In this document: positions 2,747 through 38,116 of the stretch, in pieces
Position numbering within the stretch: the first letter of the stretch is position 1
How the letters are laid out: every line of letters begins with the position of its first letter
Notes under the pieces: model-generated
What the model saw: only the letters and a program-made list of their open reading frames with translations
The model's database searches: none
What the model was told of the DNA's origin: nothing
Program-made: the position numbers and the translations under genes
From: a virus
Taxonomy: Duplodnaviria > Heunggongvirae > Uroviricota > Caudoviricetes
IMG/VR virus record: IMGVR_UViG_2802429226_000004
Span: 1 to 38,116 of that record
Length of the DNA stretch: 38,116 bases
Strand: one strand, 5' to 3'

Positions 2747-2795
2747 AAATACCTCTCTTGGTTGCAGTGCGGCGCGTGTGGCACCGCGGTGGTGG

Positions 2796-3818: not shown

Positions 3819-3827
3819 TTTTTCTCC

Positions 3828-11756: not shown

Positions 11757-12087
11757 ATCAGCAGCAGAGCGCAAAGCCGCTCAGAGAGCCAGACAAGCTG
11801 CATCTGGTGTGCGTAAGCTGGAGATTGTGCTTGATGCTCAGGAAATTGAAATGCTTGAGCGTAACTGTGCCGCGCGTCGCCCCGGGCGTGCGCCTTACGA
11901 ATTTGGTGAGTATATAGCGTTACTTATCCGCCAGGATGATGCACGCGTGCGCGGGCGTATAAAATCGATCAGCAGAAAACGTTGCGGTAAGTGCGGCGAG
12001 AGAGTTCCAGTTAATTCATGCCCGTGTAATGGTGACTCGCAATGCTGGGTGACTAAAGGCTGGCATGAAACGAAATTAATAGTGTGA
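11749..12087 (+). CDS. zinc-finger protein, candidate late-gene regulator
   Basis: 112 aa; C-terminal CGKCGERVPVNSCPCNGDSQC Cys4 cluster; last gene before a strong terminator and the terminase operon. Confidence 0.5.
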   Translation: MAKSAAERKAAQRARQAASGVRKLEIVLDAQEIEMLERNCAARRPGRAPYEFGEYIALLIRQDDARVRGRIKSISRKRCGKCGERVPVNSCPCNGDSQCWVTKGWHETKLIV

Positions 12088-12135
12088 CATGTCACGAGTA
12101 GATTATGCATGATGAATTTGATGTGTTTTGAATAC

Positions 12136-12162
12136 TGCCGCCAACTATGGCGGCTTTATTTT
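12136..12162 (+). terminator. rho-independent terminator between early/accessory genes and the late operon
   Basis: CTGCCGCC-AACTAT-GGCGGC hairpin followed by TTTATTTT. Confidence 0.7.
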
Positions 12163-14316: not shown

Positions 14317-14350
14317 TAAAACAAAGCCAGCTCGTAGGCTGGCTGTTTGT
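14317..14350. terminator. bidirectional rho-independent terminator between the terminase gene and the reverse-strand moron
   Basis: AGCCAGC-TCGTAG-GCTGGCT hairpin with T-rich tracts on both strands. Confidence 0.6.
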
Positions 14351-14364
14351 GACATGTCACGGTG

Positions 14365-24625: not shown

Positions 24626-27138
24626 TGCCAGTCGTACCAACAGTATCCGGACGTCAGGTTGAGAGCCGTGGAGTTCAGTCAGCAGGCTTGCAGACGTTTT
24701 CTCAGCCAGGTATTGGTGATGCTTTTGTTCTGGCAGGGGAAGAGGCAATTGATGTTTTTGGGCAGGCAAAACAGCGTGCCAATATTGCCTTGGCTCAGGA
24801 GGCATCTCTTAACCTCAGTCAGATAAGCAGTGATTTGCTGAATAATCCTGAAACAGGATTGCTTAACCTGAAAGGGAAAAATGCTATTGGAAAAGGCCAT
24901 GAGTATACGCAGCAGTTTGATGCTCAGGTCGAACAATTGGCTATGTCGCTGCCGGATGAACAGGCTCGTAATGCTTTCATGCAGCAGGCGCAGCAGCAGC
25001 GCATTCAGTTCACTACGCAGGCCGGGCGGCACGAGATAGGGCAAATAAATGCCTACGAAGAAGGCCAGTTTCAGGCGACGCTGCTGAACAATGGTAAAAA
25101 TGCCGCAGCATTGTATGGCGACAACGCCGCATACGTATTGGCTAATAAGCAAACTTTCCAGCAAATTGAGGATTACGGTGTTGCACATGGCTGGAGCAAC
25201 GAGCAAATCCATGCCAAGAAAATCGAGTTTAAAGAGAAGGTTGCTGATGCTGCATTGTCCCAGTGGTCGGCAAACAATGCGACCGCATTCATCCAAAGTA
25301 ATGGCGAGTTAAGTGATACTGCTGCTGGAGCTCGCCGTGCTGTAGCAGATAGTGACTCTTCCGAGCGTGCCCGTGGCATACGCAACAATAACCCAGGAAA
25401 TCTCGAATACAGCAAAACTAATCCGTGGGTAGGCCAGACCGGTGATGATGGTCGATTTGCTAAATTCGAAACACCTGAACACGGGATTCGTGCATTAGGG
25501 CGGAACCTGATGTCGTATCAGAGGCAGGGTATTGATACCGTCAGCGAGATAATTAATCGCTGGGCACCGCCTGCTGATAAAAATGACACTATGTCGTATA
25601 TCAAAGCAGTGTGCGAACAACTTGGCGTTTCTGCTGATGAGCCTCTCGATGCATCTAATCCTGATACCCTGAAGGCGCTTTGTGCAGCCATTATCCATCA
25701 TGAGAACGGTAGCCAGCCATACAGTGATCAGCAGTTAACTGCTGGTGTCAGTGCAGCACTTGGTTTATCAACAATTCCAACCAACACCAAACGCTATACC
25801 GGTAATGCAGCATTCGATGCGGCATCTCCTGAGGCGCAGGCAAGTTTTATGCGACAGGCGGATCAACTGCGTCGGCAGCAGCAGGCTGAATATAAAACGA
25901 TGATTGACAGCCAGGTTCGCGATGCGACAGCTGCGTATATGCGTGGCGTTGAATTTCCTAACCCACCTGGTGAGGCTGATTTTATTGCAGCTTATGGAGT
26001 AAGAGAAGGAAACCTGCGATATACCGAGTTCAGAAATACGCAAATCGCCGGACAGTATATAGGCTCTTTCCGCAACATGCCGACAAGCAGCATTACAGCA
26101 TATGTTGAGCAATTACGCCCGGATACTGGTGAGACAGGGGAGGGTTATGCGGCACGAGCCGCTCTTTATGACAACGTTGTGTCGGCTGCAAGTCAGGTGA
26201 TAAAGCAGCGACAGGCTGATCCTGTACAGTTCTCTCTTGCCGCCGGACAGGCAAAGCCTATCGACATGAGCAATAAGGATAACTTTGGACAGAGCGTTGC
26301 CTTGCGTGCTGCTCAGGTCAGTGACCTTGCTAAGTCATATGGCACTCCACTGACGTTCTTTTCCAAAGACGAGGCCAATCAGATCGGTGTTTTCTTTCGT
26401 GATGCGCCCGTTTCCCAACAGGCAGCATATCTCGATACCATCAGGCAGAGCACTGGTGGTGGGCAGGTGTATATGTCAGCACTACAGCAGATCAGTGCCA
26501 ACGCTCCATCTGCTGCCGTTGCCGGGATACTGATGGATAAGCCAGGTGGTATTTTGGCAGAAAAAAACTGGTTTAATCCGGATGTTTCCGTGTCTCCAGA
26601 AACCGCTGCGCAGACAATTCTTGCTGGCGCGGCGGCTCGTAAAGGTACTGATGACGCGAAAGGTATTCCGATGCCTAAAGATGCTGATCTTCGCCTTGAG
26701 TTTTCTGACATGGTGAAGAATGCATTTGCTGGTGATGCTCAGGGGGCATCAATGGCATACGAGATCGCAAAGGACTATTACGCTGGTGTGATGGCGAAAA
26801 AAGGCGTGGTATCAGGCGAAATTGACAATGATATCTGGAAACAGGCTGTTAACGTAGCTACAGGTGGCGTGCATGACTATAACGGAATGGGGAATGTTCT
26901 TTTGCCGTGGGGAATGTCTGCAGAGCAATTCGATAAGCAGGTTAATCAGGCTTGGAATGAACAAGTTGTTGGCACAGGGATAAAAACACCGCCTGGTCAG
27001 TATGGTTTGCAAAGTTACGGCGATAGTCAGTACCTGGTGAAACTTGGTACTGGTTATCTGCTAAAAGATGATGGTTCTCCCGTTGTTCTTGATCTGACAC
27101 AGAAGCGTCAGAGATTCTCCGGAGATATTCCGCAATGA
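24625..27138 (+). CDS. internal virion / ejection protein (gp15 position) with a conserved NNPGN...WAPP segment
   Basis: 837 aa from ATG 24625 (GGAGG RBS, TAATG overlap); contains RNNNPGNLEY...GIRALGRNL...IINRWAPP. Confidence 0.6.
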   Translation: MPVVPTVSGRQVESRGVQSAGLQTFSQPGIGDAFVLAGEEAIDVFGQAKQRANIALAQEASLNLSQISSDLLNNPETGLLNLKGKNAIGKGHEYTQQFDAQVEQLAMSLPDEQARNAFMQQAQQQRIQFTTQAGRHEIGQINAYEEGQFQATLLNNGKNAAALYGDNAAYVLANKQTFQQIEDYGVAHGWSNEQIHAKKIEFKEKVADAALSQWSANNATAFIQSNGELSDTAAGARRAVADSDSSERARGIRNNNPGNLEYSKTNPWVGQTGDDGRFAKFETPEHGIRALGRNLMSYQRQGIDTVSEIINRWAPPADKNDTMSYIKAVCEQLGVSADEPLDASNPDTLKALCAAIIHHENGSQPYSDQQLTAGVSAALGLSTIPTNTKRYTGNAAFDAASPEAQASFMRQADQLRRQQQAEYKTMIDSQVRDATAAYMRGVEFPNPPGEADFIAAYGVREGNLRYTEFRNTQIAGQYIGSFRNMPTSSITAYVEQLRPDTGETGEGYAARAALYDNVVSAASQVIKQRQADPVQFSLAAGQAKPIDMSNKDNFGQSVALRAAQVSDLAKSYGTPLTFFSKDEANQIGVFFRDAPVSQQAAYLDTIRQSTGGGQVYMSALQQISANAPSAAVAGILMDKPGGILAEKNWFNPDVSVSPETAAQTILAGAAARKGTDDAKGIPMPKDADLRLEFSDMVKNAFAGDAQGASMAYEIAKDYYAGVMAKKGVVSGEIDNDIWKQAVNVATGGVHDYNGMGNVLLPWGMSAEQFDKQVNQAWNEQVVGTGIKTPPGQYGLQSYGDSQYLVKLGTGYLLKDDGSPVVLDLTQKRQRFSGDIPQ

Positions 27139-28937
27139 GTTACTTTGGCCTTAATCCAGTAAACCAGAATCAGCAGCTTGACGAAGCAGCATCAAATCCA
27201 GTTGGCTTTAACAGCGATGTTGGTTTTTTCGACAATGCTGTAGGAGCGGCATTGTCTGGTTTGTACTCCGGGCTGGTGGCAAAGCCAGATCAGTTGCTAT
27301 GGGCAGGGATGGATAAAATCGTATCCCCGATTGCTCAGCTTGTTAACGAAAACACCTCGCTCAATGACACTTCAGTTTCATACATTGCTGAGCAGAGAAA
27401 ACTAGCAGAGCAGCAGGTTAAGCGGCTGACGCCTGATGCCGCGACAACCGGAACCGCCGGGCAGGTCCTTTATGGGTTGTTCGATATGGGCGGGCAGGCT
27501 GTTGTCGGTACAACGCTCGGTGGTCCGGTCGGAGGTGCTGCGGCGGTAACTTCTCTACAGGGTTTTTCTGAGTTTGAACGGTTGACAGCACAGGGTGTTG
27601 ATTTCAGGACGGCGCAGGAAGCGGGATTAGTGCAGGGTATTACTGCTGGTGCCGGAACACTGATCCCTATGAGCCTCGGGTTACGTGCTGGTGGTGCGCT
27701 GGCGGAAGGTGTGGCGGCTCAGCTTGCGCGGACGGGTGAAAGTTCAGTGCGACGCGCCGCAGCAACAGCAGTACGTGCAACGCCAGATATTGCCTATGCC
27801 GCAGGTACAAATATTGCGTTCGGTATGGCACAGCGTGGGCTTACTGCAAAAACGCTTCGTGATGGTGGCTATAGCGAAATGGCTAACCAGTATGATGTGT
27901 TGGATCGACAGGCAATTGCTATTGATGCTGTTCTTGGGGTGGCGTTTGGTGGTGTCGGCAGATTTATTAACTCTCGCGGCGAGTCTACAAGCGCACCAAA
28001 TTTTTCACCAGTTGATATTGATGCTGCACTGGCGGCGAATGCCGCTCATCATGCTGAAATTGATATTGCTCCCGGCGTTCCGATCAACGTGCTTTCGCGT
28101 AATTCGCACATTCAGGCTCTGCGAAAAGCCATGTCTGATGTTAGCCAGGGGAGACCTGTAGACGTTGCCAGCATTGTTGAGTCTGCATCTTTCAGTGAAA
28201 TTCCTGGGCGCAAGAGTCTGCTGTCTCAGGCAGTTAATGAGGCTCTGTCATCTGTAGATGATGGAGTAACGGCGCGCGCTATAGAAAATCGGTTGCTTGA
28301 AGAACAGGCCGCGCAGCTTTTGTCGCGTGGCGATAGAAAGGTTTACCAGTCTGAAATCGCTAATAGCCAACGAATTATTGAAAATCTCACTGAACAGCGC
28401 GCACAAATTCTTGCAGAAGAGCCAACCGGTAGCGGTAAGGCTTTATCTCGTGCTAGATCAGATAAACAGGCCAGACTTCGCGATATTGACCAACGAATCC
28501 GGCAGGCACAAGAACGCCTGGAATTTTCTCGTAACGCGTTGGCGCCGCACGAGCCTGGAGGTCAGTTTTTTGAAGCTCGAGCAGAACTGGCACGACGACA
28601 GCAGGCAGAAAGTGAACTTAATGCTCAGGCTGTTTCATTCTATAAAACAGCAGAGGTCAGGACGCCAGAAGAAGTAGCTCCTTTTGAGCCCGGTAAGATA
28701 TTGCAACAGACAGAACAAAAAATGATGGCAGATCCGGCAGGAGATATTGATCTGCGTATAGCTGAAGACTCGCTGCTTGAATCACCTGACATGATAATCA
28801 CCGTGCTGGATGATGATGGTAATCCACAATCGCGCAGTGCGCGTGAAGTACTGGATGAAGCGAACAGGGAAAGTGAGCAGGCAATACAGGATTCCAGCCT
28901 GTTTGATGTTGCTGTGGCGTGTTTCTTGAGAGGTTAA
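27135..28937 (+). CDS. internal virion / ejection protein
   Basis: 600 aa, Ala/Gly-rich with long helical C-half; ATGA overlap with the upstream gene. Confidence 0.6.
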   Translation: MSYFGLNPVNQNQQLDEAASNPVGFNSDVGFFDNAVGAALSGLYSGLVAKPDQLLWAGMDKIVSPIAQLVNENTSLNDTSVSYIAEQRKLAEQQVKRLTPDAATTGTAGQVLYGLFDMGGQAVVGTTLGGPVGGAAAVTSLQGFSEFERLTAQGVDFRTAQEAGLVQGITAGAGTLIPMSLGLRAGGALAEGVAAQLARTGESSVRRAAATAVRATPDIAYAAGTNIAFGMAQRGLTAKTLRDGGYSEMANQYDVLDRQAIAIDAVLGVAFGGVGRFINSRGESTSAPNFSPVDIDAALAANAAHHAEIDIAPGVPINVLSRNSHIQALRKAMSDVSQGRPVDVASIVESASFSEIPGRKSLLSQAVNEALSSVDDGVTARAIENRLLEEQAAQLLSRGDRKVYQSEIANSQRIIENLTEQRAQILAEEPTGSGKALSRARSDKQARLRDIDQRIRQAQERLEFSRNALAPHEPGGQFFEARAELARRQQAESELNAQAVSFYKTAEVRTPEEVAPFEPGKILQQTEQKMMADPAGDIDLRIAEDSLLESPDMIITVLDDDGNPQSRSAREVLDEANRESEQAIQDSSLFDVAVACFLRG

Positions 28938-28942
28938 ATTAA

Positions 28943-31417
28943 ATGAGACAGGAATGTATACAAGCGGTCCAGCAGGCGGCGCAGCGCACGTTAACGGCGC
29001 GAGAAATACAGAACATTGAAGACCGCATTTATCGAAATATGCGCTCCATTGCTCGTGATGACCCGATGTCGTGGCGACAACTTTCCGAATCAGAGCGGCT
29101 GTATCGTGCAGCACAATTGGCATCTGAAGAATTACAGCGAGAAGCGGCATTAAAGAAACGTCGTGTGGCCCTCACTATAGCCGCACGTCAGAGATTGGAT
29201 AAATTTATCAATAGCTATCAAGGGGCTGATGGGAAACTTGGCGCTCTTAACCGTACTATTGCTTTTAATGCAGACGGTAAATCGAATTTCCTCTCTGTTG
29301 AATCCAGAACAAAAGCCACCCGTGATTATGCATTGAGTCAATTGCAGGAGGCATTCGAAGCAGTTGATCCTCGCTTTTTTGGTCTGTTTGAAGATGAAGC
29401 GGGCGTACGTGACCTGGTATATGAAATGCGGGGGCAAAATACTGGCAATGCTAAAGCAAGAAAAGGTGCTAAGGCGTGGAGAGAAGTGACAGAGCTACTG
29501 CGCCGCCGGTTTAATGATGCTGGTGGGGACATTGGCTATCTCGAAAACTGGGGGATCCCTCAACATCATTCTATGGAAAAGGTTGGGGCGGTATCAAAAG
29601 ATAAATGGGTTAGCGATGTTATAGGTAAGCTGGATCGCAAATATTATACCCGAGCCGATGGACAACTGATGAACGATGCCGAGTTGTCTGCATTTCTTGG
29701 AGAGGCTTATAACACGATCGCTACTGGTGGGCTGAATAAGCTTACTGATACCGGAATGCGAATTTCCGGCGCACGTGCTAACCGTGGTAATGCATCACGA
29801 CAGATACATTTCAAAGATGCAGATTCCTATCTGCAATATCAGCAACTTTATGGCGATCGCTCTCTATGGGAAATCATGGTCGGTCACCTGGAAGGTATCA
29901 GTAAAGATATTGCACTGGTGGAAACATATGGTCCAAACCCCGATCATGTTTTCCGCTCTCTTCTTGATCAGGTGAAGGCAGAAACGGCAACAGCTAACCC
30001 GAGTAAAACCGGTAAAGTCGAGCGGCTGGCGAACAACACAGAGAATCTGTACAACTTTATTTCCGGAAAGACACAGCCTGTAGCGAATCCGCACATCGCG
30101 CGATGGTCTGACAATATCCGCAACTGGCTGGTTGCCAGCAGACTCGGATCCGCGTTGCTGTCATCGTTCTCTGATCTTGGAACCATGTATCTGTCTGCGA
30201 AGGTTACCAACCTTCCAATGAACCAGTTATTCCGCAACCAGCTTGAAGCTATGGACCCAACGAACCGTACAGAACTTGCGCGGGCGCGCCGCGCTGGTCT
30301 GGCGATGGAATCTCTACTTGGCAGCGTTAACCGCTGGGCGATGGATAATATGGGGCCGTCTGTGTCTCGTTGGGCTGCAACGGCGGTAATGCGTGCCAGT
30401 GGGCTTACAGCATGGTCAGATGCGCACAAGCGCGCCTATGGCGTAACCATGATGGGAAGCCTGGGAGAAGTAGTGTCACGGACACCAGACCTTCGTCGCC
30501 TCGATGACTCTGATTTTCGTATCCTGAAAAGCAAAGGGATTACTGACACAGACTGGAGCGTATGGAAGTTGGCGCAACAGGAGGACTGGGGGAACGGTAA
30601 TAATACGATGCTGACACCGGAAAGCATTATGCGTATCCCTGATTCAGCAGTTAAACATCTTGGTGAGCCTGAACGCGTGAAATTTGAGGCAATGCGTAAA
30701 CTGCTCGGTGCCGTAACTGAAGAAGTTGATATGGCTGTTATTACACCGGGAGCACGTGAGCAACTGATAACCGGTTCTGGTATTCAGCGTGGAACATGGA
30801 AAGGTGAATTAACGAGAAGTGTTTTCCTGTTTAAATCGTTCCCTATCTCGGTTGTTATGCGTCACTGGTCACGCGCTATGGGTATGCCGTCTGCTGGTGG
30901 GCGTGCGGCATATATTGCGACGTTTATTGCCAGTACGACCATTCTTGGCGCTTTGTCGCAACAACTTAACGACCTTGCGTCTGGTCGTAATCCTCGAGAG
31001 ATGACAGGAGAAGATGCCGCAAAATTCTGGCTTGGTGCTCTACTGAAAGGTGGTGGTCTTGGCCTTTACGGTGACTTTTTATTGTCAGATCACACTAGGT
31101 ACGGAAGCGGCGCGCTGGCGTCGATGCTTGGCCCGGTAGCTGGTCTAGTTGATGACGTAGTGAAGATTGCTCAGGGCATACCGTTAAATGCTGTGGAAGG
31201 GAAGAGTGAGCAGACTGGTGGTGATCTGGTGAAGCTGGGGAAAGGTTTGATGCCTGGTGCGAATCTCTGGTACTTGAAGGCGGCTCTCGATCACATGATC
31301 TTTAACCAGATGCAGGAGTATTTTTCACCAGGCTATTTGCGTAAAATGGAGCAACGTTCGAAGAAAGAGTTTAACCAGACATACTGGTGGCGACCTCAGG
31401 ATGTCACTCCGCAATAA
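28943..31417 (+). CDS. large internal virion / ejection protein (gp16 position)
   Basis: 824-aa ORF, last of the large ejection-protein series before the tailspike region. Confidence 0.6.
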   Translation: MRQECIQAVQQAAQRTLTAREIQNIEDRIYRNMRSIARDDPMSWRQLSESERLYRAAQLASEELQREAALKKRRVALTIAARQRLDKFINSYQGADGKLGALNRTIAFNADGKSNFLSVESRTKATRDYALSQLQEAFEAVDPRFFGLFEDEAGVRDLVYEMRGQNTGNAKARKGAKAWREVTELLRRRFNDAGGDIGYLENWGIPQHHSMEKVGAVSKDKWVSDVIGKLDRKYYTRADGQLMNDAELSAFLGEAYNTIATGGLNKLTDTGMRISGARANRGNASRQIHFKDADSYLQYQQLYGDRSLWEIMVGHLEGISKDIALVETYGPNPDHVFRSLLDQVKAETATANPSKTGKVERLANNTENLYNFISGKTQPVANPHIARWSDNIRNWLVASRLGSALLSSFSDLGTMYLSAKVTNLPMNQLFRNQLEAMDPTNRTELARARRAGLAMESLLGSVNRWAMDNMGPSVSRWAATAVMRASGLTAWSDAHKRAYGVTMMGSLGEVVSRTPDLRRLDDSDFRILKSKGITDTDWSVWKLAQQEDWGNGNNTMLTPESIMRIPDSAVKHLGEPERVKFEAMRKLLGAVTEEVDMAVITPGAREQLITGSGIQRGTWKGELTRSVFLFKSFPISVVMRHWSRAMGMPSAGGRAAYIATFIASTTILGALSQQLNDLASGRNPREMTGEDAAKFWLGALLKGGGLGLYGDFLLSDHTRYGSGALASMLGPVAGLVDDVVKIAQGIPLNAVEGKSEQTGGDLVKLGKGLMPGANLWYLKAALDHMIFNQMQEYFSPGYLRKMEQRSKKEFNQTYWWRPQDVTPQ

Positions 31418-31426
31418 GGAAGTGTT

Positions 31427-31600
31427 GTGTTTTTAATTATTTTGAGTGTGATAATTTCTGGTGTATTGTTATTTATTGACCGCTACAAATATTTTCTTAA
31501 CCCTCAGACTCAAGCTATTTGCTGGTTCATCTTTGTTGTGCAGGGAGTAGTTCTTGTTGCAAGCCTTATTGAGGGGAGGCCTCTTATTTTTACTGGGTAA
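31427..31600 (+). CDS. small hydrophobic membrane peptide (57 aa, GTG start)
   Basis: Hand-translated VFLIILSVIISGVLLFIDRYKYFLNPQTQAICWFIFVVQGVVLVASLIEGRPLIFTG with two predicted TM segments; AAGGA 6 nt upstream; AT-rich; not in the ORF track. Confidence 0.4.
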   Translation: MFLIILSVIISGVLLFIDRYKYFLNPQTQAICWFIFVVQGVVLVASLIEGRPLIFTG

Positions 31601-31612
31601 ATAGGTGACTAC

Positions 31613-31909
31613 ATGCAAGCTATAGGATTCATTGTTTATATCGTCGTTGGTCTTTTTCAGTTGGCAGCAATTATGGCTGGGCTTGAATCATGGTGGGGAT
31701 TGCACTGGATAATTGCAGCCCCCATTGCTTTCATCGTGAGCTATATTCCATTTGTTGGAGCGATTGTTGGTATGGTTGGCGCTGTGGATGTATGGCGGTG
31801 GGAGTGGTGGCAGGCTGGCCTTCTCTTCTTTGGTGGGATCATCTTTGCTATTGTCTGCGGTGGAATGTCATCATTTTTCGAATGGCTATCATTCAGAAAA
31901 GGTACGTGA
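31613..31909 (+). CDS. small integral membrane protein (98 aa, Trp-rich)
   Basis: AGGTGA RBS; three hydrophobic segments (..IVYIVVGLFQLAAIMAGL.., ..IIAAPIAFIVSYIPFVGAIVGMVGAV.., ..LLFFGGIIFAIVCGG..); followed by palindrome and terminator. Confidence 0.55.
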   Translation: MQAIGFIVYIVVGLFQLAAIMAGLESWWGLHWIIAAPIAFIVSYIPFVGAIVGMVGAVDVWRWEWWQAGLLFFGGIIFAIVCGGMSSFFEWLSFRKGT

Positions 31910-31917
31910 CATGTCAC

Positions 31918-31944
31918 AGGCCGCTTTCGCGGCCTTTTCTTTAT
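31918..31944 (+). terminator. rho-independent terminator after the membrane protein genes
   Basis: AGGCCGC-TTTC-GCGGCCT hairpin followed by TTTCTTTAT. Confidence 0.65.
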
Positions 31945-32213
31945 GTGGTTTGTTTTCGTAATTGTTCGGCACAATAGTCGAGATGTGTTTGCAGATCCTG
32001 CATAGACATCTGTGAGCTGGTGACGTAGTTAATCAGTGCAGTCAGTTCGGCAAGTGGGCCATCGACATTAAATCCATCCTTATCGAGATCCCGGAGTAAT
32101 TTCATCAAGTGCGATCCCTCCACCAGTGACCTGACGCCTCCCGGCGTGTGAATCCTTTCGGTAAATCCGTCTTCCAGTGGATAGTGATACTGCTGCATCT
32201 TAATCTTCTCCAT
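31941..32213 (-). CDS. hypothetical protein (90 aa), reverse-strand moron
   Basis: Minus-strand ORF with its own upstream intergenic region; no family recognised. Confidence 0.5.
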   Translation of the reverse strand: MEKIKMQQYHYPLEDGFTERIHTPGGVRSLVEGSHLMKLLRDLDKDGFNVDGPLAELTALINYVTSSQMSMQDLQTHLDYCAEQLRKQTT

Positions 32214-32394: not shown

Positions 32395-34740
32395 ATGACG
32401 GTCTCAACCGAAGTTGACCACAACGAATACACCGGTAACGGCGTTACGACATCGTTTCCGTATACTTTTCGAATTTTCAGAAAATCAGACCTGGTTGTTC
32501 AGGTGTCTGACCTGAACGGGAACGTAACAGAATTGGTTCTGGATACCGGTTATACGGTAACTGGGGCGGGCACTTATAGTGGCGGTTCAGTGGTTCTGCC
32601 GTCTCCGCTTGCTGCTGGCTGGCGAATTACGATAGATCGTGTGCTTGATGTAGTGCAGGAGACAGATCTTCGCAATCAGGGAAAATTTTTCCCCGAAGTG
32701 CATGAAGATGCTTTGGACTACCTGACGATGCTGATCCAGCAATGTTTTGGGTGGTTCAGACGTGCATTGATGAAACCATCTTTGCTTGCAAAATATTACG
32801 ATGCAAAGCAAAACAGAATTTCTAACCTTGCAGATCCATCACTTGAGCAGGACGCTGTAAATAATCGCTCAATGCGTAATTATGTCGATGCTGCAATCGC
32901 CGGGGTTGTTGGTGGTTTTGGTTGGTTTATTCAGTATGGTTCTGGGGCAGTATACAGAACGTTCCAGGATAAAATGCGAGATAATTTTAGTGTTAAAGAT
33001 TTTGGGGCGAAAGGGGATGGGGTATATTCAGACTCTGATGCCATTAATGCCGCAGCATTAGCTGCTTTTAATAATGGTGGCGGGGGAATATTTTACCCTC
33101 CAGGTGTTTATTTAATAGATTCTCCTATCATTCTTTATACAGGCGTTCATCATAAAGGCTCTGGAAAGAGAGCAACATTTCTGTATGTTAAAAAAGGTAG
33201 TAATACAGATGTATTTAAAACACATGGCTTTGGCGTTGTGGAAAATCTGTCTGATGCGCCATATGGATTTAGCATAAAAGATATGACCATTGATGGTAAT
33301 TATCTTGACTTGCAAAGAGATACAAACTCATGGAGAACTTGCGACACTGTTAACAATGACTATGGAACTGCCATTAAAATATTCGGCAGCATGTACCACA
33401 TTGATGTTGAGATTAATAATGTTGCAGAACATGCTCTCTATTCAGAGGGGTATGGATCATTTCATGATAATCAGGAACACGCCTCTGAAGTGAGGATAAC
33501 GGGAAGAATTTCAGGGAGAGAGGGGGTTGTGTTCAGGGGGCCAGGTGATATTAACCTGGATTATATTGTTTTTGGCCTGTGTGGACTTCCTCCTTACAGC
33601 GCAAGATTAACAGCAACAAGCCAACAAAGCCTTCTTTATCCCGGAGAACCATGTCATGGAATTGTTCTTGATAATCAGTCTCCTTATACAGGACATGTCG
33701 ATATAAATTACATCCATGTATATGCCGTGTATTATGGCTATGGATTTAAGACGCTGGGTGTTAACCGATTCAATGCGAGGCACGTGTGTGTTGATAATAG
33801 TTTAGGTGGTTACTGGTTTACCAACGGGGCACATGGTGTTGTTGCCATCGCAGAAGCCAGGGCATGCGGAAGAATGCCAGATAACTACACTGGCGATTCA
33901 ATATCTCCTCTCCGCGACATGCTTCTGGATAACGGTACAATCTGGACACTTAACATCAATATAAAAGCACAAAGATATTCACCTTCAATTGATGATGATG
34001 GGTATCAGATAGCTATATCAGGCAACAACAATGTAGTTACAATAAACCAAATAGGTCAGTTACAGAGTGATAATACCCCTATTAAAGCCTCGTTTCTTTC
34101 TGTTACTGGTGACAATAACAATGTTACTTTTACATCCAAGAGGATAAAAGGAAATTTATGTTACTTATCTGGTGGCGGTAATAACATAAGAGGTACGTGT
34201 GATAATTTGTTCTCAGGTGCTGCTTTTATTCGCGACGCAACAAATTCAACAACAATTTGTTTTGCGAACAGTGTAGATATAACTGCGAAGGGGCTTTCTT
34301 CTGATTGTACTGGATTTAATAGTATTGGTACATGTGCATCAGAGAATATAAGGTTAATGATTTCTGGTGCTGTTGGATATACGAAGTTTACTGGCGATCG
34401 TATGGCTGCAATAAATCGAACTTGTGTTTGGATGGTAATGGCAACAATAGGAAATTCAATTAATGGTAAATCGACAGAGGATTATCTTGAGTGGGCTATG
34501 CCTACACCAACCGATGGTGATTTTCATGAGGTAGATATAGAACATAACTTCCTTTATGCTCCAACTTTAAATCAAATTTCATGGGCTTTCAGACAACCCG
34601 GTACTGAAGTTGTTGGTGCAACTATTGATTATATAAGACTCATTGGTGTTCCAACAGATACAACATTTAAAATCAGATATAAGTGGTCTGGTGCAGCCGC
34701 TTCTGGAAGCGCACCTATAGTAACGTTTCATATAAAATAA
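32395..34740 (+). CDS. tailspike protein with pectate-lyase-like beta-helix (probable polysaccharide depolymerase)
   Basis: 781 aa; N-terminal MTVSTEVDHNEYTGNGVTTSFPYTFRIF attachment domain; FSVKDFGAKGDGVYSDSDAINAAAL and repeated beta-helix-like segments; C-terminal two-thirds strongly AT-rich. Confidence 0.8.
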   Translation: MTVSTEVDHNEYTGNGVTTSFPYTFRIFRKSDLVVQVSDLNGNVTELVLDTGYTVTGAGTYSGGSVVLPSPLAAGWRITIDRVLDVVQETDLRNQGKFFPEVHEDALDYLTMLIQQCFGWFRRALMKPSLLAKYYDAKQNRISNLADPSLEQDAVNNRSMRNYVDAAIAGVVGGFGWFIQYGSGAVYRTFQDKMRDNFSVKDFGAKGDGVYSDSDAINAAALAAFNNGGGGIFYPPGVYLIDSPIILYTGVHHKGSGKRATFLYVKKGSNTDVFKTHGFGVVENLSDAPYGFSIKDMTIDGNYLDLQRDTNSWRTCDTVNNDYGTAIKIFGSMYHIDVEINNVAEHALYSEGYGSFHDNQEHASEVRITGRISGREGVVFRGPGDINLDYIVFGLCGLPPYSARLTATSQQSLLYPGEPCHGIVLDNQSPYTGHVDINYIHVYAVYYGYGFKTLGVNRFNARHVCVDNSLGGYWFTNGAHGVVAIAEARACGRMPDNYTGDSISPLRDMLLDNGTIWTLNINIKAQRYSPSIDDDGYQIAISGNNNVVTINQIGQLQSDNTPIKASFLSVTGDNNNVTFTSKRIKGNLCYLSGGGNNIRGTCDNLFSGAAFIRDATNSTTICFANSVDITAKGLSSDCTGFNSIGTCASENIRLMISGAVGYTKFTGDRMAAINRTCVWMVMATIGNSINGKSTEDYLEWAMPTPTDGDFHEVDIEHNFLYAPTLNQISWAFRQPGTEVVGATIDYIRLIGVPTDTTFKIRYKWSGAAASGSAPIVTFHIK

Positions 34741-34776
34741 ACAATTTATTAATTAGTTTTTAATTATATAGAAGGC

Positions 34777-34815
34777 ATCAGTCCCAATAAAATGGGGCTG
34801 ATTACTTTTCATTGT
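34777..34815 (+). terminator. putative rho-independent terminator after the tailspike gene
   Basis: CAGTCCC-AATAAAAT-GGGGCTG imperfect hairpin followed by a T-rich tract. Confidence 0.4.
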
Positions 34816-34957
34816 TTTCATAAAAAGGTAAAAAAATTAAATATTATTATTTGTTTGAACCTGGTTATAGAAGTAATTATTTTAAGGTAACATTAAACCT
34901 TATGTGGTTTGTTGTGTATGATAGTCTGTAAGTGAAGAGGTTCGATATGTACAGAAA

Positions 34958-35371
34958 ATGGTGTGTGCTATGTCAGTTCAAATAACATCAGAGTCTTTAA
35001 ATCAATGGCTTAGTGCTAGTTCTCTGGTTGCAGTGATAGCAGGAGTTCCTCCTGAGGTTGCTTTAGGTGCCTTAGCTGGTGCGGTAATCTTTGTTACCTC
35101 TGCTGTCGAGTATCCGATCCGCCGCCGAGTGCTCCTCTCTATGCTCAGCTTTCTTTGCGGCCTTCTCTTTTACAAACCTGCAGCATCAATTCTTATCGGA
35201 ATAGCCAGTCTGATCCCTACCATCACGAAGGAGTCTTTTGAGAAAGGGATTGTTTTCTCTGCTGGCGCATTCGTGTCAGCAATTGTCGCTGTGCGTATTG
35301 GTATATGGCTCTATCACCGTTCCGATAATCCACGCGAGTTAATTCCGGGGAGAAAAGGCGATGGTAACTAA
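34958..35371 (+). CDS. holin-like membrane protein (start uncertain; 34970 is an alternative)
   Basis: 137 aa with several hydrophobic helices; first gene of the cassette ending in endolysin and spanins. Confidence 0.5.
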   Translation: MVCAMSVQITSESLNQWLSASSLVAVIAGVPPEVALGALAGAVIFVTSAVEYPIRRRVLLSMLSFLCGLLFYKPAASILIGIASLIPTITKESFEKGIVFSAGAFVSAIVAVRIGIWLYHRSDNPRELIPGRKGDGN

Positions 35372-35669
35372 TGAGCTTGTTTTGCTTATCACCAATGCAC
35401 TTATTTGTACTGGCATAGCAATTCGTGTTGTCACATTCCGGCGTAACGGTTCACAACACCGAAGATGGGGAGGGTGGCTTGCTTATTTCCTTATTGTTGC
35501 TGCGGCCAGTATTCCTGTTCGTGTCGTCTATGCAATCTGGTTACGCACGCCAATGGCTGTGGATTTATCAGAGGTCATTATCAACGCTGTCATGCTTGCT
35601 GCGGTTCTTAAAACTCGCGGTAACGTCGTTCAGATTTTCAAAATAACGAGGTCTAAACATGGAGATTAA
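35361..35669 (+). CDS. second holin/antiholin-like membrane protein
   Basis: 102 aa, three hydrophobic segments, overlaps both neighbours; directly upstream of the endolysin gene. Confidence 0.5.
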
Positions 35670-36288
35670 ACAATTCCAGCGAGCTGCTGGTATTAGCGAT
35701 GCGCTGGCCGCACGCTGGTTCTCGCATATAACTTCTGCGATGAAAGAGTTTGGTATCAGCAAACCAGAAGATCAGGCAATGTTTATTGCTCAGGTCGGGC
35801 ATGAGTCTGGAGGCTTCACCCGGTTGCAGGAAAATTTCAACTACAGCGTCAGCGGACTGGCTAATTTCGTTCGGGCTGGGCGTCTCACTCAGGGACAGGC
35901 CAACGCATTGGGGCGCCGTGCTGGTGAACCACCATTGCCACTTGAGCGCCAGAGAGCGATCGCCAATCTGGTGTACAGCAAACGCATGGGTAACAATGCC
36001 CCAGGTGATGGCTGGAATTACCGTGGGCGCGGGCTTATCCAGATTACCGGTTTGAATAACTATCGTGACTGTGGAAACGGTCTGAAAGTTGACCTGCTGG
36101 ATAGTCCTGAACTGCTGGCGCAGGACGAATACGCGGCTCGTAGCGCGGCGTGGTTTTTTGCCAGCAAAGGCTGCATGAAGTATACCGGTGATATTGCACG
36201 TGTAACTCTGATTATCAATGGTGGCCGGAACGGCATCGACGACCGGCGCGCGCGGTACGTTACTGCCAGTAAGGTGCTGGTCGTATGA
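35659..36288 (+). CDS. endolysin, glycoside hydrolase family 19 (chitinase-like) type
   Basis: 209 aa; ...[12 protein letters not shown]... and ...[16 protein letters not shown]... match GH19-type phage endolysin signatures as recalled. Confidence 0.85.
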
Positions 36289-36767
36289 TCTGGGCATTCG
36301 TAAAAGCATACTGGAAACAGTTGATTATCATGGCGGTGCTTGCTGTTCTGGTCATATCAGGAGTTGTTGCCTGGAATGTGCACGGCAGTCGTCAGTACGA
36401 CGCCGGGTATGCACAGGCGAAAGAAGACCGCAAAACCGAAGATGAGAGAGTTCGTCAGCACTACGAACAGGAGAAATCGATCAATGAACGTGAAGCGCAG
36501 CAGAGGATCGACCAGGCGCGCAATGATGCTCTTGATGCTGCCGCTCGCGCTGGCCGGTTGCAGCAACAGCTCGTTGCCATCCGTGAGCAGCTCAGGCAGT
36601 ATAACGCCATTGTCGGCGCTGGGACGTCAGCCGCAGACACCGGAGTTTTGCTTGCCGACGTGCTCAGTAAATCTCTCGAGAGAAACAGACAACTGGCAGA
36701 GTATGCTGACCGGGCAGCCGAAGCCGGAAGAGTCTGTGAAAAACAGTACGACACCCTGACCAGATAG
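36285..36767 (+). CDS. i-spanin (Rz-like)
   Basis: 160 aa; N-terminal TM helix ([18 protein letters not shown]) followed by charged coiled-coil periplasmic domain; ATGA overlap with the endolysin gene. Confidence 0.7.
36484..36759 (+). CDS. o-spanin (Rz1-like lipoprotein) embedded in the +1 frame of the i-spanin gene
   Basis: 91 aa from ATG 36484: [26 protein letters not shown], a lipoprotein signal with LAGC lipobox, then Ser/Pro-rich mature region; AGGAG 10 nt upstream. Confidence 0.6.
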   Translation: MNVKRSRGSTRRAMMLLMLPLALAGCSNSSLPSVSSSGSITPLSALGRQPQTPEFCLPTCSVNLSRETDNWQSMLTGQPKPEESVKNSTTP

Positions 36768-37042: not shown

Positions 37043-37585
37043 TTAATTAAACCAACTGTCTGATTTATTCTCTTCTGCTTTACCCACGCTTTTCATCAAA
37101 TCACGACCACCTTCAGTCATATTCCTGTTAGCGTCAGCTTCAGATTGTACAACATCGGTTTGCGCTGCTTTGTGTTTCAGTTCCTGATCGATAAATTCGT
37201 TCTCACGCTTAACGCGCGCTTCTTCTTTTGCCAGCGCCAGTTTTTGCTTCTGAATCTCTAAGTTGCGCAGCTCATCTTCATAACTTTGATCGCGCTTTTT
37301 ATCCGCAGTGAATTCGGCGTCCCGTTTATCCTGGCGAGCTTTTTTATCCGCTGCTGCTGCTGCCGCTCTTTTATTCGCTGCGGCCTGAGCGTTTGCGCGC
37401 CGTTGCTTCTCTTGCTGGATTTCCCTGTTGCGCTCCGCAACCCATTCGTCATGCTGCCTTTGTTCTTCATTTTTGCCTTGCTGTTCAGCTTCTGCGACCG
37501 CAGAGAGTTGATCCTGTAATGAAGAGGCGAAAGCCGGGCTACTAACAGCAGCTAATATGGCGGCGCAAAGAAAAACTTTCTTCAT
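37043..37585 (-). CDS. secreted coiled-coil periplasmic protein, host-like (possibly YfgI-like)
   Basis: 180 aa; signal peptide MKKVFLCAAILAAVSSPAFA; highly charged Lys/Glu/Ala/Gln-rich helical body; GGAGGA RBS. Confidence 0.55.
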   Translation of the reverse strand: MKKVFLCAAILAAVSSPAFASSLQDQLSAVAEAEQQGKNEEQRQHDEWVAERNREIQQEKQRRANAQAAANKRAAAAAADKKARQDKRDAEFTADKKRDQSYEDELRNLEIQKQKLALAKEEARVKRENEFIDQELKHKAAQTDVVQSEADANRNMTEGGRDLMKSVGKAEENKSDSWFN

Positions 37586-37600: not shown

Positions 37601-38116
37601 TTAGCTCTTTTCAGGACATTTTGTATTTGGCTGAATACGCGTTTCGTTATAAGTGGTGGTAATAACAACGGCTAAACCCGTTGTGAACTGGCATTCTTTA
37701 CCCACCTGGGTGGAGGTGTACACTTTGGTGCCTTCCTTATAAGTTAAAGAGACACCTTCCACTAAGGTTTTATCATTCACCATAGTACCCGCTGCCGCGC
37801 CTACAGCTCCGCCACCAACTGCACCAGCCGTTGTTCCGGAGTTACTACCAGATCCAACGTTATGGCCGATAACGCCGCCTGCGACAGCGCCAATAAGTGC
37901 GCCAAAGGCTTGCGCATTCCGTTTATTTTGTGAGTTATCTACGGCAACTTTTGCGGGAAGAATGGAGATAATATTAACGGTTTTAGTTTCTTGCTTTGTA
38001 TTCAGTTGATCGGTTTGATAGACATCGGCGGCATGGTCGTCAGCATTTGACTGGCATCCTGCCAGGGTGAATGACGCTAAAATTGCCACAGGCAGAAAAC
38101 ATTTTTTAAATTTCAT
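37601..38116 (-). CDS. glycine-zipper outer-membrane lipoprotein, host-like (possibly YfgH-like); start codon at window edge
   Basis: 171 aa; lipoprotein signal with LAGC lipobox; Gly-zipper GALIGAVAGGVIGHNVGSG...GAVGGGAVGAAAG. Confidence 0.55.
   Translation of the reverse strand: MKFKKCFLPVAILASFTLAGCQSNADDHAADVYQTDQLNTKQETKTVNIISILPAKVAVDNSQNKRNAQAFGALIGAVAGGVIGHNVGSGSNSGTTAGAVGGGAVGAAAGTMVNDKTLVEGVSLTYKEGTKVYTSTQVGKECQFTTGLAVVITTTYNETRIQPNTKCPEKS

What the first reader, a model, noticed from the sequence alone, without database searches (positions are those of the whole stretch)
31427..31909. Two small membrane proteins inserted between the ejection-protein genes and the tailspike: candidate lysogenic-conversion or exclusion factors
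An AT-rich segment encodes a 57-aa two-TM peptide (GTG start, absent from the ORF track) and a 98-aa Trp-rich three-TM protein. It is bounded upstream by the end of the ejection-protein operon and downstream by the GTGACATGTCAC palindrome and a terminator. The separate holin cassette sits beside the endolysin, so these are unlikely to be the lysis holins. In epsilon15-type phages small hydrophobic proteins are reported to inhibit the host O-antigen polymerase (recalled, not verified here), so these are candidates for O-antigen modification or superinfection exclusion.
Basis: inference. Interest (0 to 1): 0.6.

Follow-up and report, generated by a model that had tools for sequence, protein, structure and literature searches.

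The report
Swappable membrane-protein cassette ending phage late operon
Two real but uncharacterised small membrane-protein genes sit in an exchangeable accessory slot just behind the DNA-ejection genes of an epsilon15/phiV10-type E. coli prophage; they most plausibly block entry of rival phage DNA, not alter the O-antigen, but no function has been shown.

Summary
The window is a Uetakevirus (phiV10/epsilon15-type) prophage. A 57-aa two-helix ORF (31427-31600, GTG start) and a 98-aa three-TM, Trp-rich ORF (31613-31909) follow the last ejection-protein gene. A palindrome and a strong terminator close the segment.

Both ORFs are genuine genes. p57 is intact in 68 related loci (dN/dS about 0.2). 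p98 is under very strong purifying selection (dN/dS 0.01-0.04). p98 belongs to PHROG 3075 and to a large family of at least 749 clusters that is absent from Pfam, NCBIfam, PADLOC and the PDB.

The segment is an accessory cassette:
- More distant relatives join the ejection gene directly to the tail-fibre gene.
- phiV10 and SPN1S carry only a 46-aa peptide at this site.
- The position upstream of p98 holds at least six unrelated envelope-targeted genes.

The epsilon15 precedent does not apply. Its polymerase inhibitor (gp22) lies downstream of the tailspike and is unrelated. p98 stays nearly invariant beside more than 20 tailspike types and coexists with gtr modules.

The placement and three-TM topology mirror P22 sieA. 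There is no homology to SieA, and no own promoter was found, so the genes look like the distal cistrons of the late operon. Exclusion is the best guess (about 0.4). Function is unproven.

The parts
28943..31417 (+). gp17-like internal-virion/ejection protein (824 aa). It is the last large gene of the late structural operon and the left boundary of the cassette.
   Evidence: ORF. PHROG 684 'virion structural protein'. Homologs are annotated as internal virion protein in Pelagibacter phages and as epsilon15 gp17/BcepC6B gp17-like elsewhere.
31416..31422 (+). Shine-Dalgarno-like AAGGAAG for p57, overlapping the gp17 stop codon (31415-31417).
   Evidence: Sequence. An SD-like element is kept in all 26 p57 nucleotide variants, including the Klebsiella forms (GGGGGA / GGGGAGGGGAG).
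31427..31600 (+). p57: 57-aa two-helix hairpin membrane peptide with a GTG start and an invariant DRYKYFL loop. It is the variable member of the cassette.
   Evidence: intact in 68 loci; dN/dS 0.18-0.25; TM 1-20 and 28-51; homologs only in Enterobacteriaceae; alignment; AF2 helices 2-23 and 26-49. GC 0.362.
31601..31612 (+). 12-nt spacer containing the SD AGGTGA (31603-31608). It is part of the roughly 14-nt leader (AAATAGGTGACTAC) that travels with p98 in most contexts.
   Evidence: sequence upstream of this leader is unrelated between cassette types.
31613..31909 (+). p98: 98-aa three-TM, Trp-rich membrane protein. It belongs to PHROG 3075 and is the conserved member of the cassette.
   Evidence: PHROG 3075 at E 1.6e-54. 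Homologs and alignments, with near-invariant Q16, P46, the G49/G53/G56-A57 motif and W61/W63. dN/dS 0.01-0.04. AF2 pLDDT 90.9. 749 family clusters. Present in 216 of 5426 complete E. coli genomes.
31906..31917 (.). Perfect 12-bp palindrome GTGACATGTCAC overlapping the p98 stop codon. It is the right boundary of the cassette and one of three exact copies in the window.
   Evidence: It is conserved after every cassette type, including phiV10 p21 and the epsilon15 gp18-like ORF.
31918..31945 (+). Intrinsic terminator: hairpin AGGCCGCTTTCGCGGCCT followed by a T-run.
   Evidence: 7 pairs, 6 GC; one of the two strongest plus-strand hits across 20 kb. (fold z-score -3.0). Annotated as a terminator in phiV10.
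31941..32213 (-). Convergent 90-aa gene (epsilon15 gp19 / phiV10 p24-like, PHROG 450). In this window it is the only occupant of the second variable region before the tailspike.
   Evidence: In relatives the same region also holds Bro-N antirepressor, HicAB and small ORFs.
32395..34740 (+). Tailspike (781 aa): conserved N-terminal head-binding part and variable receptor domain.
12084..12095 (.). Second exact copy of the palindrome. It overlaps the stop codon of the phiV10 p55-like regulator gene. A terminator follows at 12137-12154, just upstream of and into the start of terS.
14349..14360 (.). Third exact copy of the palindrome. It lies between the stop codon of the minus-strand gp66-like gene (14365) and its terminator (14344-14325), just after terL.

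Best explanation
The segment is an accessory, horizontally exchanged 'envelope-protein cassette'. It is appended to the 3' end of the late (virion/ejection-protein) operon of a temperate Uetakevirus-type prophage. Its left boundary is the stop codon of the last ejection-protein gene. Its right boundary is a conserved palindrome plus an intrinsic terminator.

p98 is the fixed component. It is a small three-TM inner-membrane protein, predicted N-terminus out and C-terminus in, with a Trp-rich periplasmic-face loop and a Gly-zipper-like second helix. p57 is one of several alternative partners that occupy the variable position in front of it.

Both genes are transcribed with, or by read-through from, the late operon and are translated from their own SD sites.

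The most likely function is superinfection exclusion at the inner membrane. By analogy with P22 SieA, p98 (with or without p57) would interfere with the channel that incoming podovirus ejection proteins build, so that rival DNA does not reach the cytoplasm. Adsorption and LPS would be unchanged.

Shown here: the genes are real, the products are membrane proteins, the cassette is accessory and mobile, it is independent of tailspike type, and it is tightly coupled to the ejection operon. Inferred: inner-membrane location, topology, time of expression, and the exclusion function itself.
For: Real, selected genes.

Accessory cassette:
- The gp17-like gene is followed directly by the tail-fibre gene in BcepC6B, VP2, Ab31 and Skadi-3.
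- phiV10 and SPN1S carry only a 46-aa two-TM peptide between the same gp17 stop codon and the same palindrome plus terminator.
- The position between gp17 and p98 holds one of several unrelated genes, or nothing: p57, a 54-aa homolog, a 103-aa TM protein, a 112-aa TM protein, 102/123-aa signal-peptide proteins, or a 175-aa signal-peptide protein. All are envelope-targeted.
- p57 has a foreign GC content (0.36 against 0.51).

Linkage to ejection genes. p98 always follows the last ejection-protein gene, even when that gene is only 23-27% identical and even in a different phage backbone: Cronobacter with a 2-nt gap, and a Salmonella prophage where a Bro-N gene and then the terminase gene follow.

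Parallel with SieA. SieA is a three-TM inner-membrane protein. Its gene always lies between gene 16 (ejection protein) and gene 9 (tailspike). It acts on the ejection proteins gp16 and gp20, and SieA types only about 25% identical exclude alike (PMC10883804). As in P22, the neighbouring DNA in relatives carries an antirepressor (Bro-N) region.

Not serotype-linked: near-invariant p98 sits beside more than 20 tailspike receptor types.
Against: - There is no sequence or profile similarity to SieA (hhalign probability 0.2%), no match to any Pfam family including superinfection-immunity families, and no match to PADLOC defence models.
- Unlike sieA, the genes are on the same strand as the ejection genes. 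No sigma-70-like promoter was found and the conserved leader of p98 is only about 14 nt. Expression in the lysogen, where exclusion pays most, is therefore not supported by sequence.
- The p98 family is large. It also occurs in apparently non-phage contexts (Microvirga, Desulfovibrio, Buttiauxella) and fused to DUF805, RDD or zinc-ribbon domains. That fits a generic membrane function as well as it fits exclusion.
- Four complete E. coli records carry two p98 copies (223 places in 219 records), so any exclusion of like phages is not absolute.
- Fold searches gave nothing informative.
Confidence: 0.4

Rival explanations
1. Lytic-cycle membrane function. As distal cistrons of the late operon, p57 and p98 would act in the producing cell. 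They might tune holin triggering or lysis timing, or shield the inner membrane from the phage's own newly made ejection proteins. They would not protect a lysogen.
For: The genes are on the same strand as the gp17-like gene and tightly packed behind it, with gaps of 9 and 12 nt. No own promoter was found, and the first strong plus-strand terminator after the terS start region comes only behind p98. There is a weak sub-threshold match of p98 to Phage_holin_5_2 (E 0.027, 15.2 bits against a cut-off of 29.2). The same slot sometimes holds signal-peptide proteins. From my own knowledge, this recalls periplasmic antiholin-type regulators such as T4 RI.
Against: The lysis cassette after the tailspike is complete: two holin-family genes, an endolysin and an Rz spanin. 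None of 77 diverse family members hits a holin model at E <= 0.01. p98 is absent from phiV10, SPN1S and the epsilon15-like phage, which share the same lysis genes. p98 also occurs outside phages.
Confidence: 0.2
2. Host-physiology or other defence cargo. The cassette proteins would change a general property of the host envelope, such as stress or serum tolerance, transport or membrane homeostasis. Alternatively they could act as membrane effectors against unrelated phages. Neither role would have a specific link to ejection proteins.
For: p98 belongs to a broad family of 749 clusters found in many bacterial phyla. Members are fused to DUF805, RDD, zinc-ribbon or MORN domains, or sit next to DUF6804 membrane proteins, and often lie outside recognisable phage contexts. 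Extreme purifying selection (dN/dS 0.01-0.04), regardless of phage backbone and tailspike, fits a conserved host target. A phiv142-3 prophage that carries this cassette improves serum survival of its APEC host, although that effect was mapped to other ORFs (PMC7724020).
Against: In Enterobacterales the gene sits strictly behind the last ejection-protein gene across three gp17 types and two phage backbones. Random cargo would not be expected to do that. There are no PADLOC hits. No promoter for lysogenic expression was found.
Confidence: 0.2
3. O-antigen / LPS conversion. The small hydrophobic proteins would inhibit the host O-antigen polymerase or otherwise alter LPS, as epsilon15 Iap does, masking the receptor.
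For: Small hydrophobic inhibitors of Wzy exist in this phage group (epsilon15 iap, cited in PMC8787464). This window has no O-antigen-modifying gene at the usual site: only a 218-nt gap separates the tailspike from the holin gene. Relatives carry oac, wzy+iap or gtr there.
Against: Epsilon15 Iap is gp22. It lies on the minus strand downstream of the tailspike, next to the phage wzy-like gene, and is unrelated to p57 and p98. p98 is 97-100% identical beside more than 20 tailspike receptor-domain clusters, whereas Wzy enzymes are serotype-specific (general knowledge). p98 coexists with gtrA/B and Glucos_trans_II modules. No promoter for prophage expression was found.
Confidence: 0.08
4. One or both ORFs are not expressed as proteins, and the segment is a spacer or regulatory DNA.
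For: p57 uses GTG or TTG starts and is left out by PGAP and by most depositors. No proteomic or ribosome-profiling data were found.
Against: p57 keeps its ORF length, its SD and purifying selection across 26 nucleotide variants and several genera. The competing antisense ORF is not conserved. p98 shows dN/dS 0.01-0.04 and has hundreds of homologs.
Confidence: 0.03

Closest known systems
P22 SieA superinfection-exclusion protein (types A-C; PMC10883804)
   Same: Both are small integral membrane proteins with three predicted TM helices. Both genes lie in the accessory region between the last ejection-protein gene and the tailspike gene of a temperate podovirus, next to an antirepressor region in relatives. 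Both are present in only some members of the phage group, and in both groups the neighbouring ejection proteins are highly mosaic.
   Different: There is no detectable sequence or profile similarity, and the FxRYPxEAxxFNK motif is absent. p98 is 98 aa against 162-164 aa or more. sieA is on the opposite strand with its own promoter PsieA and is expressed from the prophage. p57 and p98 are co-directional with the ejection genes and no promoter was found. No functional data exist.
Epsilon15 gp22 Iap (inhibitor of alpha-polymerase) and the analogous small Iap peptide of Pseudomonas phage D3
   Same: It is a small hydrophobic two-TM peptide encoded by a phage of the same genus (66 aa in the epsilon15-like genome).
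   Different: It lies at a different locus, downstream of the tailspike beside the phage wzy-like gene, and on the minus strand. It has no sequence similarity. Its function is tied to one O-antigen type, whereas p98 is independent of tailspike type.
phiV10 p21 / SPN1S_0020 (46-aa 'putative integral membrane protein') and the epsilon15 gp18-like 64-aa ORF
   Same: They occupy exactly the same slot: they start just after the gp17 stop codon and end at the same GTGACATGTCAC palindrome and terminator. All are two-TM peptides like p57.
   Different: Their sequences are unrelated (PHROGs 7892 and 29212 against no PHROG for p57). Those phages lack p98 altogether. Their function is also unknown.
Classical morons encoding exclusion proteins inside late operons. 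Examples: HK97 gp15 (cited in PMC11436027) and cor of phi80/N15.
   Same: These are accessory genes embedded co-directionally in a structural operon. Their products are membrane or envelope proteins, their base composition deviates, and a terminator follows.
   Different: From my own knowledge, morons are defined by an own promoter as well as a terminator. No promoter was found here. There is no homology.
[quoted passage not shown]
   Same: It is a small multi-TM inner-membrane protein encoded by a phage, with DNA-entry block as the proposed action.
   Different: There is no Pfam match of any kind at E <= 1 apart from a sub-threshold holin hit. The phage type and time of expression differ.

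Membership tests
PHROG 3075 (phage protein family of unknown function) | Full-length match to the family profile | tested here: met
   p98 matches at E 1.6e-54 over residues 1-98 of a 98-position profile.
P22 SieA family (types A, B, C) | Sequence homology to SieA, including the conserved cytoplasmic motif FxRYPxEAxxFNK | tested here: not met
   hhalign of the p98 family profile against P22 SieA gives probability 0.2% over 7 aligned columns. The motif is absent from p57 and p98 (sequences). Types B and C were not available for comparison.
P22 SieA family (types A, B, C) | Gene located between the last ejection-protein gene and the tailspike gene | tested here: met
   p57 and p98 lie between the gp17-like gene (ends 31417) and the tailspike (starts 32395). 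The position holds in about 100 loci. The SieA rule is stated in PMC10883804.
P22 SieA family (types A, B, C) | Integral inner-membrane protein of about 160-200 aa with three or four TM helices | tested here: inconclusive
   Three TM helices are predicted, but the protein has only 98 residues. Localisation was not tested.
P22 SieA family (types A, B, C) | Own promoter and expression from the repressed prophage | tested here: not met
   The genes are on the same strand as the late genes. There is no promoter match of 9/12 or better within 330 nt upstream, and only 8/12 matches inside p57. The conserved p98 leader is about 14 nt. This is sequence evidence only; no transcript data were available.
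P22 SieA family (types A, B, C) | Blocks DNA injection by related phages, with escape mutations in ejection proteins | not testable with these tools
   Needs plating, K+ efflux and escape-mutant experiments.
Iap-type inhibitors of O-antigen polymerase (epsilon15 gp22) | Homology to epsilon15 Iap | tested here: not met
   BLASTP of the epsilon15-like 66-aa ORF against p57 and p98 gives no hit even at E <= 10.
Iap-type inhibitors of O-antigen polymerase (epsilon15 gp22) | Encoded beside a phage wzy (beta-polymerase) gene downstream of the tailspike | tested here: not met
   In the epsilon15-like genome the gene lies at L011 13905-14105 (-), next to the O-antigen-ligase-family gene. The window has no such gene; the tailspike-holin gap is 218 nt.
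Iap-type inhibitors of O-antigen polymerase (epsilon15 gp22) | Distribution follows host O-antigen / tailspike specificity | tested here: not met
   There are 42 tailspike receptor-domain clusters among 58 loci. p98 at 97% identity or more is found beside more than 20 of them.
Holins | Membership of a holin family profile | tested here: not met
   The best hit is PF16079 at 15.2 bits against a cut-off of 29.2 (E 0.027). None of the 77 family members scanned matches PF16079 or any other holin family at E <= 0.01. The PHROG is not a lysis family.
Holins | Gene adjacent to endolysin/spanin genes | tested here: not met
   The lysis cassette lies at 34958-36767, after the tailspike, and already has two holin-family genes.
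Moron (autonomous accessory transcription unit in a prophage) | Presence/absence polymorphism among otherwise related phages, and deviating base composition | tested here: met
   GC is 0.362 for p57 and 0.461 for p98, against 0.506 for the late operon.
Moron (autonomous accessory transcription unit in a prophage) | Own terminator | tested here: met
   Strong intrinsic terminator at 31918-31935 plus T-run.
Moron (autonomous accessory transcription unit in a prophage) | Own promoter active in the lysogen | tested here: inconclusive
   No consensus-like promoter was found. A consensus scan cannot exclude a weak or activator-dependent promoter.

The most novel reading that the evidence does not exclude
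p98 would define a large, unrecognised family of three-TM proteins: at least 749 clusters at 50% identity, absent from Pfam, NCBIfam, PADLOC and the PDB. In enterobacterial podovirus prophages it would be the constant member of a palindrome-bounded, cassette-swapping 'envelope defence slot' fused to the ejection-protein operon.

It would block genome delivery at the inner membrane whatever the ejection-protein type. The variable partner gene (p57, other TM peptides, periplasmic proteins) would set or widen the specificity.

This would be a second, unrelated solution to the problem SieA solves. It would also give a positional rule for finding entry-blocking genes in podoviruses.
Probability: 0.25. 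Interest if true: 0.7.

Novelty: new variant of a known kind. Interest (0 to 1): 0.45.

Why it matters
About 4% of complete E. coli genomes (216 of 5426, including O26 and other STEC, ETEC and APEC strains) carry p98, so the cassette is common.

If it blocks DNA entry, it would affect the host range of Uetakevirus-type phages used for typing, detection (phiV10 reporter phages) and biocontrol.

It would also add an unrelated protein family to the one characterised inner-membrane entry block of podoviruses, SieA. That offers a handle on how the epsilon15-type ejection proteins cross the inner membrane.

Independently of function, three results are usable as they stand:
- The 57-aa gene is systematically missed by annotation pipelines.
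- p98 belongs to a widespread, strongly constrained membrane-protein family with no database entry.
- The gp17/tailspike junction is a defined hotspot where envelope-targeted accessory genes can be mined.

Tried and rejected
Searches that gave nothing:
- Family scans of p57 and p98 against Pfam, NCBIfam and PADLOC gave nothing above threshold.
- Pfam scans of 77 standalone and 34 fused family members gave no consistent family. Partner domains were only DUF805, RDD, zinc ribbon and MORN.
- A PDB sequence search with the family profile gave 0 hits. gp17-like and gp16-like also have no solved relatives.
- Cluster names for distant homologs were uninformative.
- The other slot occupants have no known function.

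Ideas considered and dropped:
- Stop-codon read-through fusion of p57 and p98. They are in the same frame in the window, but phiv142-3 has a 1-nt insertion in the spacer and other upstream genes are in other frames, so this is a coincidence.
- A terminator inside p57 (31570-31586). The hairpin is not conserved in Klebsiella.
- TM segments in gp17 as support for a membrane-pore role. None pass the threshold.

Literature:
- No paper mentions WP_001147904, PhiV10p21 or epsilon15p18.
- The phiv142-3 paper gives no data for orf12, and its held supplement has none either.
- The epsilon15 genome paper (PMC2698709) is not held.

Double lysogens: the count of genomes with two p98 copies (4 records) is too small, and too confounded by strain relatedness, to test exclusion.
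Full report
**What the window is.** The region matches Uetakevirus genomes (phiV10, phiv142-3, HEMP4, PAS61) at 96-99% identity. The window starts with a 416-aa ORF the same size as the phiV10 integrase and runs through early genes and a late operon: terS at 12128, terL, portal, capsid, tail, and three large internal-virion/ejection proteins at 24550-31417. Then come the tailspike at 32395-34740 and a complete lysis cassette at 34958-36767.

**The observation.** Both ORFs are exactly as described: 31427-31600 (GTG, 57 aa) and 31613-31909 (ATG, 98 aa).
- Each has an SD-like element at the right distance.
- Hydropathy and AlphaFold agree on a two-helix hairpin for p57 and three TM helices for p98. 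In p98 the second helix is kinked at the near-invariant Pro46.
- p98 has 8 Trp in 98 residues.
- GC is 0.362 for p57 and 0.461 for p98, against 0.506 for the late operon.
- The palindrome GTGACATGTCAC (31906-31917) overlaps the p98 stop codon. It is followed by one of the two strongest plus-strand terminator matches in 20 kb.
- The separate holin/endolysin/spanin cassette is confirmed.
- A minus-strand 90-aa gene (31941-32213) also lies between the terminator and the tailspike.

**Are they genes?** Yes.
- p57 is absent from the PGAP, phiv142-3 and BUCT711 annotations. It is nevertheless an intact ORF in 68 related loci with 26 nucleotide variants. It is 57 codons long in 67 of the 68 loci and always has a GTG or TTG start behind an SD.
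- p57 homologs at 74-80% identity occur in Salmonella, Enterobacter and Klebsiella.
- dN/dS against Klebsiella copies is 0.18-0.25 for p57.
- For p98, 44-45 of about 50 differences are at third codon positions, and dN/dS is 0.01-0.04.

**What family?**
- p98 is PHROG 3075, of unknown function.
- A word-seeded search found 52 clusters in Klebsiella, Dickeya, Cronobacter, Kosakonia, Yersinia and Salmonella.
- An exhaustive profile search found 749 clusters at E <= 1e-3 and 320 at E <= 1e-10. Most are standalone proteins of about 100 aa. Some are fused to DUF805, RDD, zinc-ribbon or MORN domains.
- The near-invariant positions are Q16 in helix 1, P46 and the G49/G53/G56-A57 motif in helix 2, and W61, W63 and F72 at the loop into helix 3.
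- The family is not in Pfam, NCBIfam, PADLOC or the PDB, and the fold search gives nothing.
- Distant members in Microvirga, Desulfovibrio, Mailhella and Buttiauxella are not in obvious phage contexts. In two alphaproteobacterial loci a DUF6804 membrane protein follows directly.
- p57 is a narrow family confined to Enterobacteriaceae.

**The locus is an exchangeable cassette.**
- In distant phages with a gp17-like gene (BcepC6B, VP2, Ab31, Skadi-3), the tail-fibre gene follows within 4-60 nt.
- In enterobacterial temperate relatives there is an insertion with two parts. Part (a) is a plus-strand cassette of small genes ending in the palindrome and a terminator. Part (b) is a minus-strand region of variable length holding a gp19-like gene with or without Bro-N antirepressor, HicAB and others.
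- phiV10 and SPN1S have only a 46-aa two-TM peptide in (a). The epsilon15-like phage has a 64-aa two-TM ORF. Tyrion has an ORF of about 103 aa.
- Where p98 is present it is always the last gene before the palindrome. In front of it lie p57 (68 loci), a 54-aa distant homolog of p57, a 103-aa TM protein, a 112-aa TM protein, 102/123-aa signal-peptide proteins, a 175-aa signal-peptide protein, or nothing.
- All of these are predicted to go to the envelope, and none has a known function.
- Sequence similarity between contexts breaks immediately upstream of a leader of about 14 nt (AAATAGGTGACTAC) and resumes at the palindrome.
- p98 copies 94-100% identical sit beside gp17-like genes only 23-27% identical to each other.
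- In complete E. coli genomes, this gp17 type occurs in 320 genomes, p98 in 216 and the full p57+p98 module in 205 of 5426.

**Expression.**
- The cassette genes abut the gp17 stop codon, with gaps of 1-10 nt, and abut each other.
- No sigma-70-like promoter of 9/12 or better lies within 330 nt upstream. The only 8/12 matches are inside AT-rich p57.
- The parsimonious reading is that p57 and p98 are the distal cistrons of the late operon. This is inference from sequence; I found no transcript or proteome data.
- One caveat: the tailspike and lysis genes downstream must also be expressed late. Either they have their own promoter or late transcription reads through the terminator. In the second case, the terminator would serve to stop some other, non-late transcription through the cassette.

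- The epsilon15 inhibitor of alpha-polymerase is gp22 (NP_848230; PMC8787464). In the epsilon15-like genome it is a 66-aa minus-strand ORF downstream of the tailspike, next to the wzy-like gene. It has no similarity to p57 or p98.
- Among 58 loci with enough tailspike sequence there are 42 receptor-domain clusters. p98 at 97% identity or more accompanies more than 20 of them.
- p98 also coexists with gtrA/B and Glucos_trans_II modules.
- A nearly invariant protein is a poor candidate for an inhibitor of the highly serotype-specific Wzy. I rate this reading at about 0.08.
- In its favour, this particular prophage has no O-antigen gene at the usual site.

**Best explanation.** The closest functional analogue is P22 SieA.
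- SieA is a three-TM inner-membrane protein. Its gene always lies between ejection gene 16 and tailspike gene 9. It blocks DNA injection, and escape mutations map to ejection proteins gp16 and gp20. SieA types only about 25% identical exclude alike (PMC10883804).
- p98 shares the position, the topology class, the patchy distribution and the mosaic ejection-protein neighbourhood.
- It fails the membership tests. There is no homology, it has 98 rather than about 160 residues, it is on the same strand as the ejection genes, and no own promoter was found.
- I therefore propose that it works like an entry-blocking exclusion protein (confidence about 0.4). I do not file it as a SieA family member.

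**Rivals.**
- A lytic-cycle membrane role such as lysis timing or self-protection (0.2), favoured by the operon structure.
- A generic envelope or host-physiology or other defence role (0.2), favoured by the breadth of the family.
- O-antigen conversion (0.08).
- Non-expression (0.03).

**Side finding.** The palindrome is not just a boundary marker.
- It occurs exactly three times in the window (12084, 14349, 31906), where about 0.002 copies would be expected by chance (my estimate for an exact 12-mer in 38 kb).
- It sits at the same three places in phiV10 and in the epsilon15-like genome, despite only 27% gp17 identity.
- It is present in 89 of the 111 fetched loci, and it follows the cassette in every cassette-bearing locus inspected except L008 and L102.
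- The adjacent terminator hairpins differ in sequence.
- Each copy lies between a stop codon and an intrinsic terminator, read in the direction of the gene that ends there.
- The first copy supplies the -35-like hexamer of a 9/12 promoter match, just after the phiV10 p55-like regulator gene and just before terS.
- It is probably a protein-binding site linked to termination or late transcription. I did not test this.

**Verdict.** The finding is a new, uncharacterised variant of a known kind of phage accessory function. Interest is moderate (0.45).

Noticed in passing
window 12084-12095, 14349-14360, 31906-31917 (also phiV10 L105 2262 and 19493; epsilon15-like L112 2324, 19727, 39847): The perfect palindrome GTGACATGTCAC occurs exactly three times per genome, at the same three operon boundaries in three divergent Uetakeviruses. 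Each copy lies between a stop codon and an intrinsic terminator. The adjacent terminator hairpins differ in sequence between relatives. The first copy doubles as the -35-like hexamer of a promoter match just upstream of terS, right after a 113-aa 'transcriptional regulator' gene. This is probably a regulator-binding site tied to termination or late transcription.
   Followed up: partly
window 34741-34957: Only a 218-nt, very AT-rich gap (GC about 0.29) separates the tailspike from the first holin gene. Relatives carry an O-antigen-modifying module there: oac in phiV10, wzy-like plus iap in epsilon15, gtrA/B in an O26 prophage, Glucos_trans_II in Cronobacter. This prophage seems to lack a seroconversion module at the usual site.
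   Followed up: partly
L069, L071, L059, L092, L102, L103, L084 at about 3620-4000 (between the gp17-like stop codon and the p98 start): The position in front of p98 is hypervariable. It holds unrelated genes for a 103-aa TM protein (PHROG 21905, also seen in phage Tyrion), a 112-aa TM protein, 102/123-aa signal-peptide proteins that are 43% identical to each other, a 175-aa signal-peptide protein, or a 54-aa distant homolog of p57. All are envelope-targeted and of unknown function.
   Followed up: partly
L005-L007 (Cronobacter), L071-L075, L086, L103, L059, L008-L010 (Salmonella): Near-identical p98 genes (94-100% identity) sit behind gp17-like ejection genes only 23-27% identical to the window's. 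In a Salmonella prophage, a more divergent homolog (about 52-58% identical to the window's p98) sits in a different backbone, where a Bro-N gene and then the terminase gene follow. The ejection-protein genes are highly mosaic, as reported for P22 genes 16 and 20.
   Followed up: partly
L017 4308-4646, L019 4304-4594 (L016 4276-5526 starts with a similar N-terminal sequence but had no Pfam hit): In two alphaproteobacterial genomes (a Microvirga MAG and an uncultured alphaproteobacterium), the distant p98 homolog is followed within tens of nucleotides by a DUF6804 membrane-protein gene. In at least the Microvirga MAG, a gene that looks like a serine recombinase lies nearby (judged by eye, not tested). 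This may be a conserved pair of small membrane proteins on mobile DNA.
   Followed up: no
L003 (phiv142-3) 4255-4611; L002 (YDC107_2) 7-1756: There are annotation and sequence-quality issues in public records. phiv142-3 Orf12 is called with an upstream start (118 aa) that overlaps the end of the unannotated p57. The YDC107_2 record has indels that split the gp17-like gene into several fragments and shift the frame of p57.
   Followed up: no
L005-L007 5362-6620; L001 4334-5013; L003 4643-6281: The minus-strand region between the cassette terminator and the tailspike is a second variable accessory region. Relatives carry a Bro-N antirepressor, a HicA/DUF1902 toxin-antitoxin pair and small ORFs there. 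One of these is phiv142-3 orf10, reported to raise serum resistance (PMC7724020). In this window only the gp19-like gene remains. The layout resembles the P22 immI region.
   Followed up: no
window 37043-37585 (-) and 37601-38116 (-): Two minus-strand genes lie after the Rz spanin gene. One is a DUF5384 protein (PHROG 1094). In phiV10 a terminator and then the integrase gene follow Rz. These may be extra cargo next to the attachment site or flanking host DNA.
   Followed up: no
E. coli genome hits, e.g. NZ_CP027599.1 (strain 97-3250): Four complete E. coli records carry two copies of p98, and six carry two copies of this gp17 type. Double lysogeny by cassette-bearing prophages therefore occurs, which bears on how absolute any exclusion could be.
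   Followed up: no
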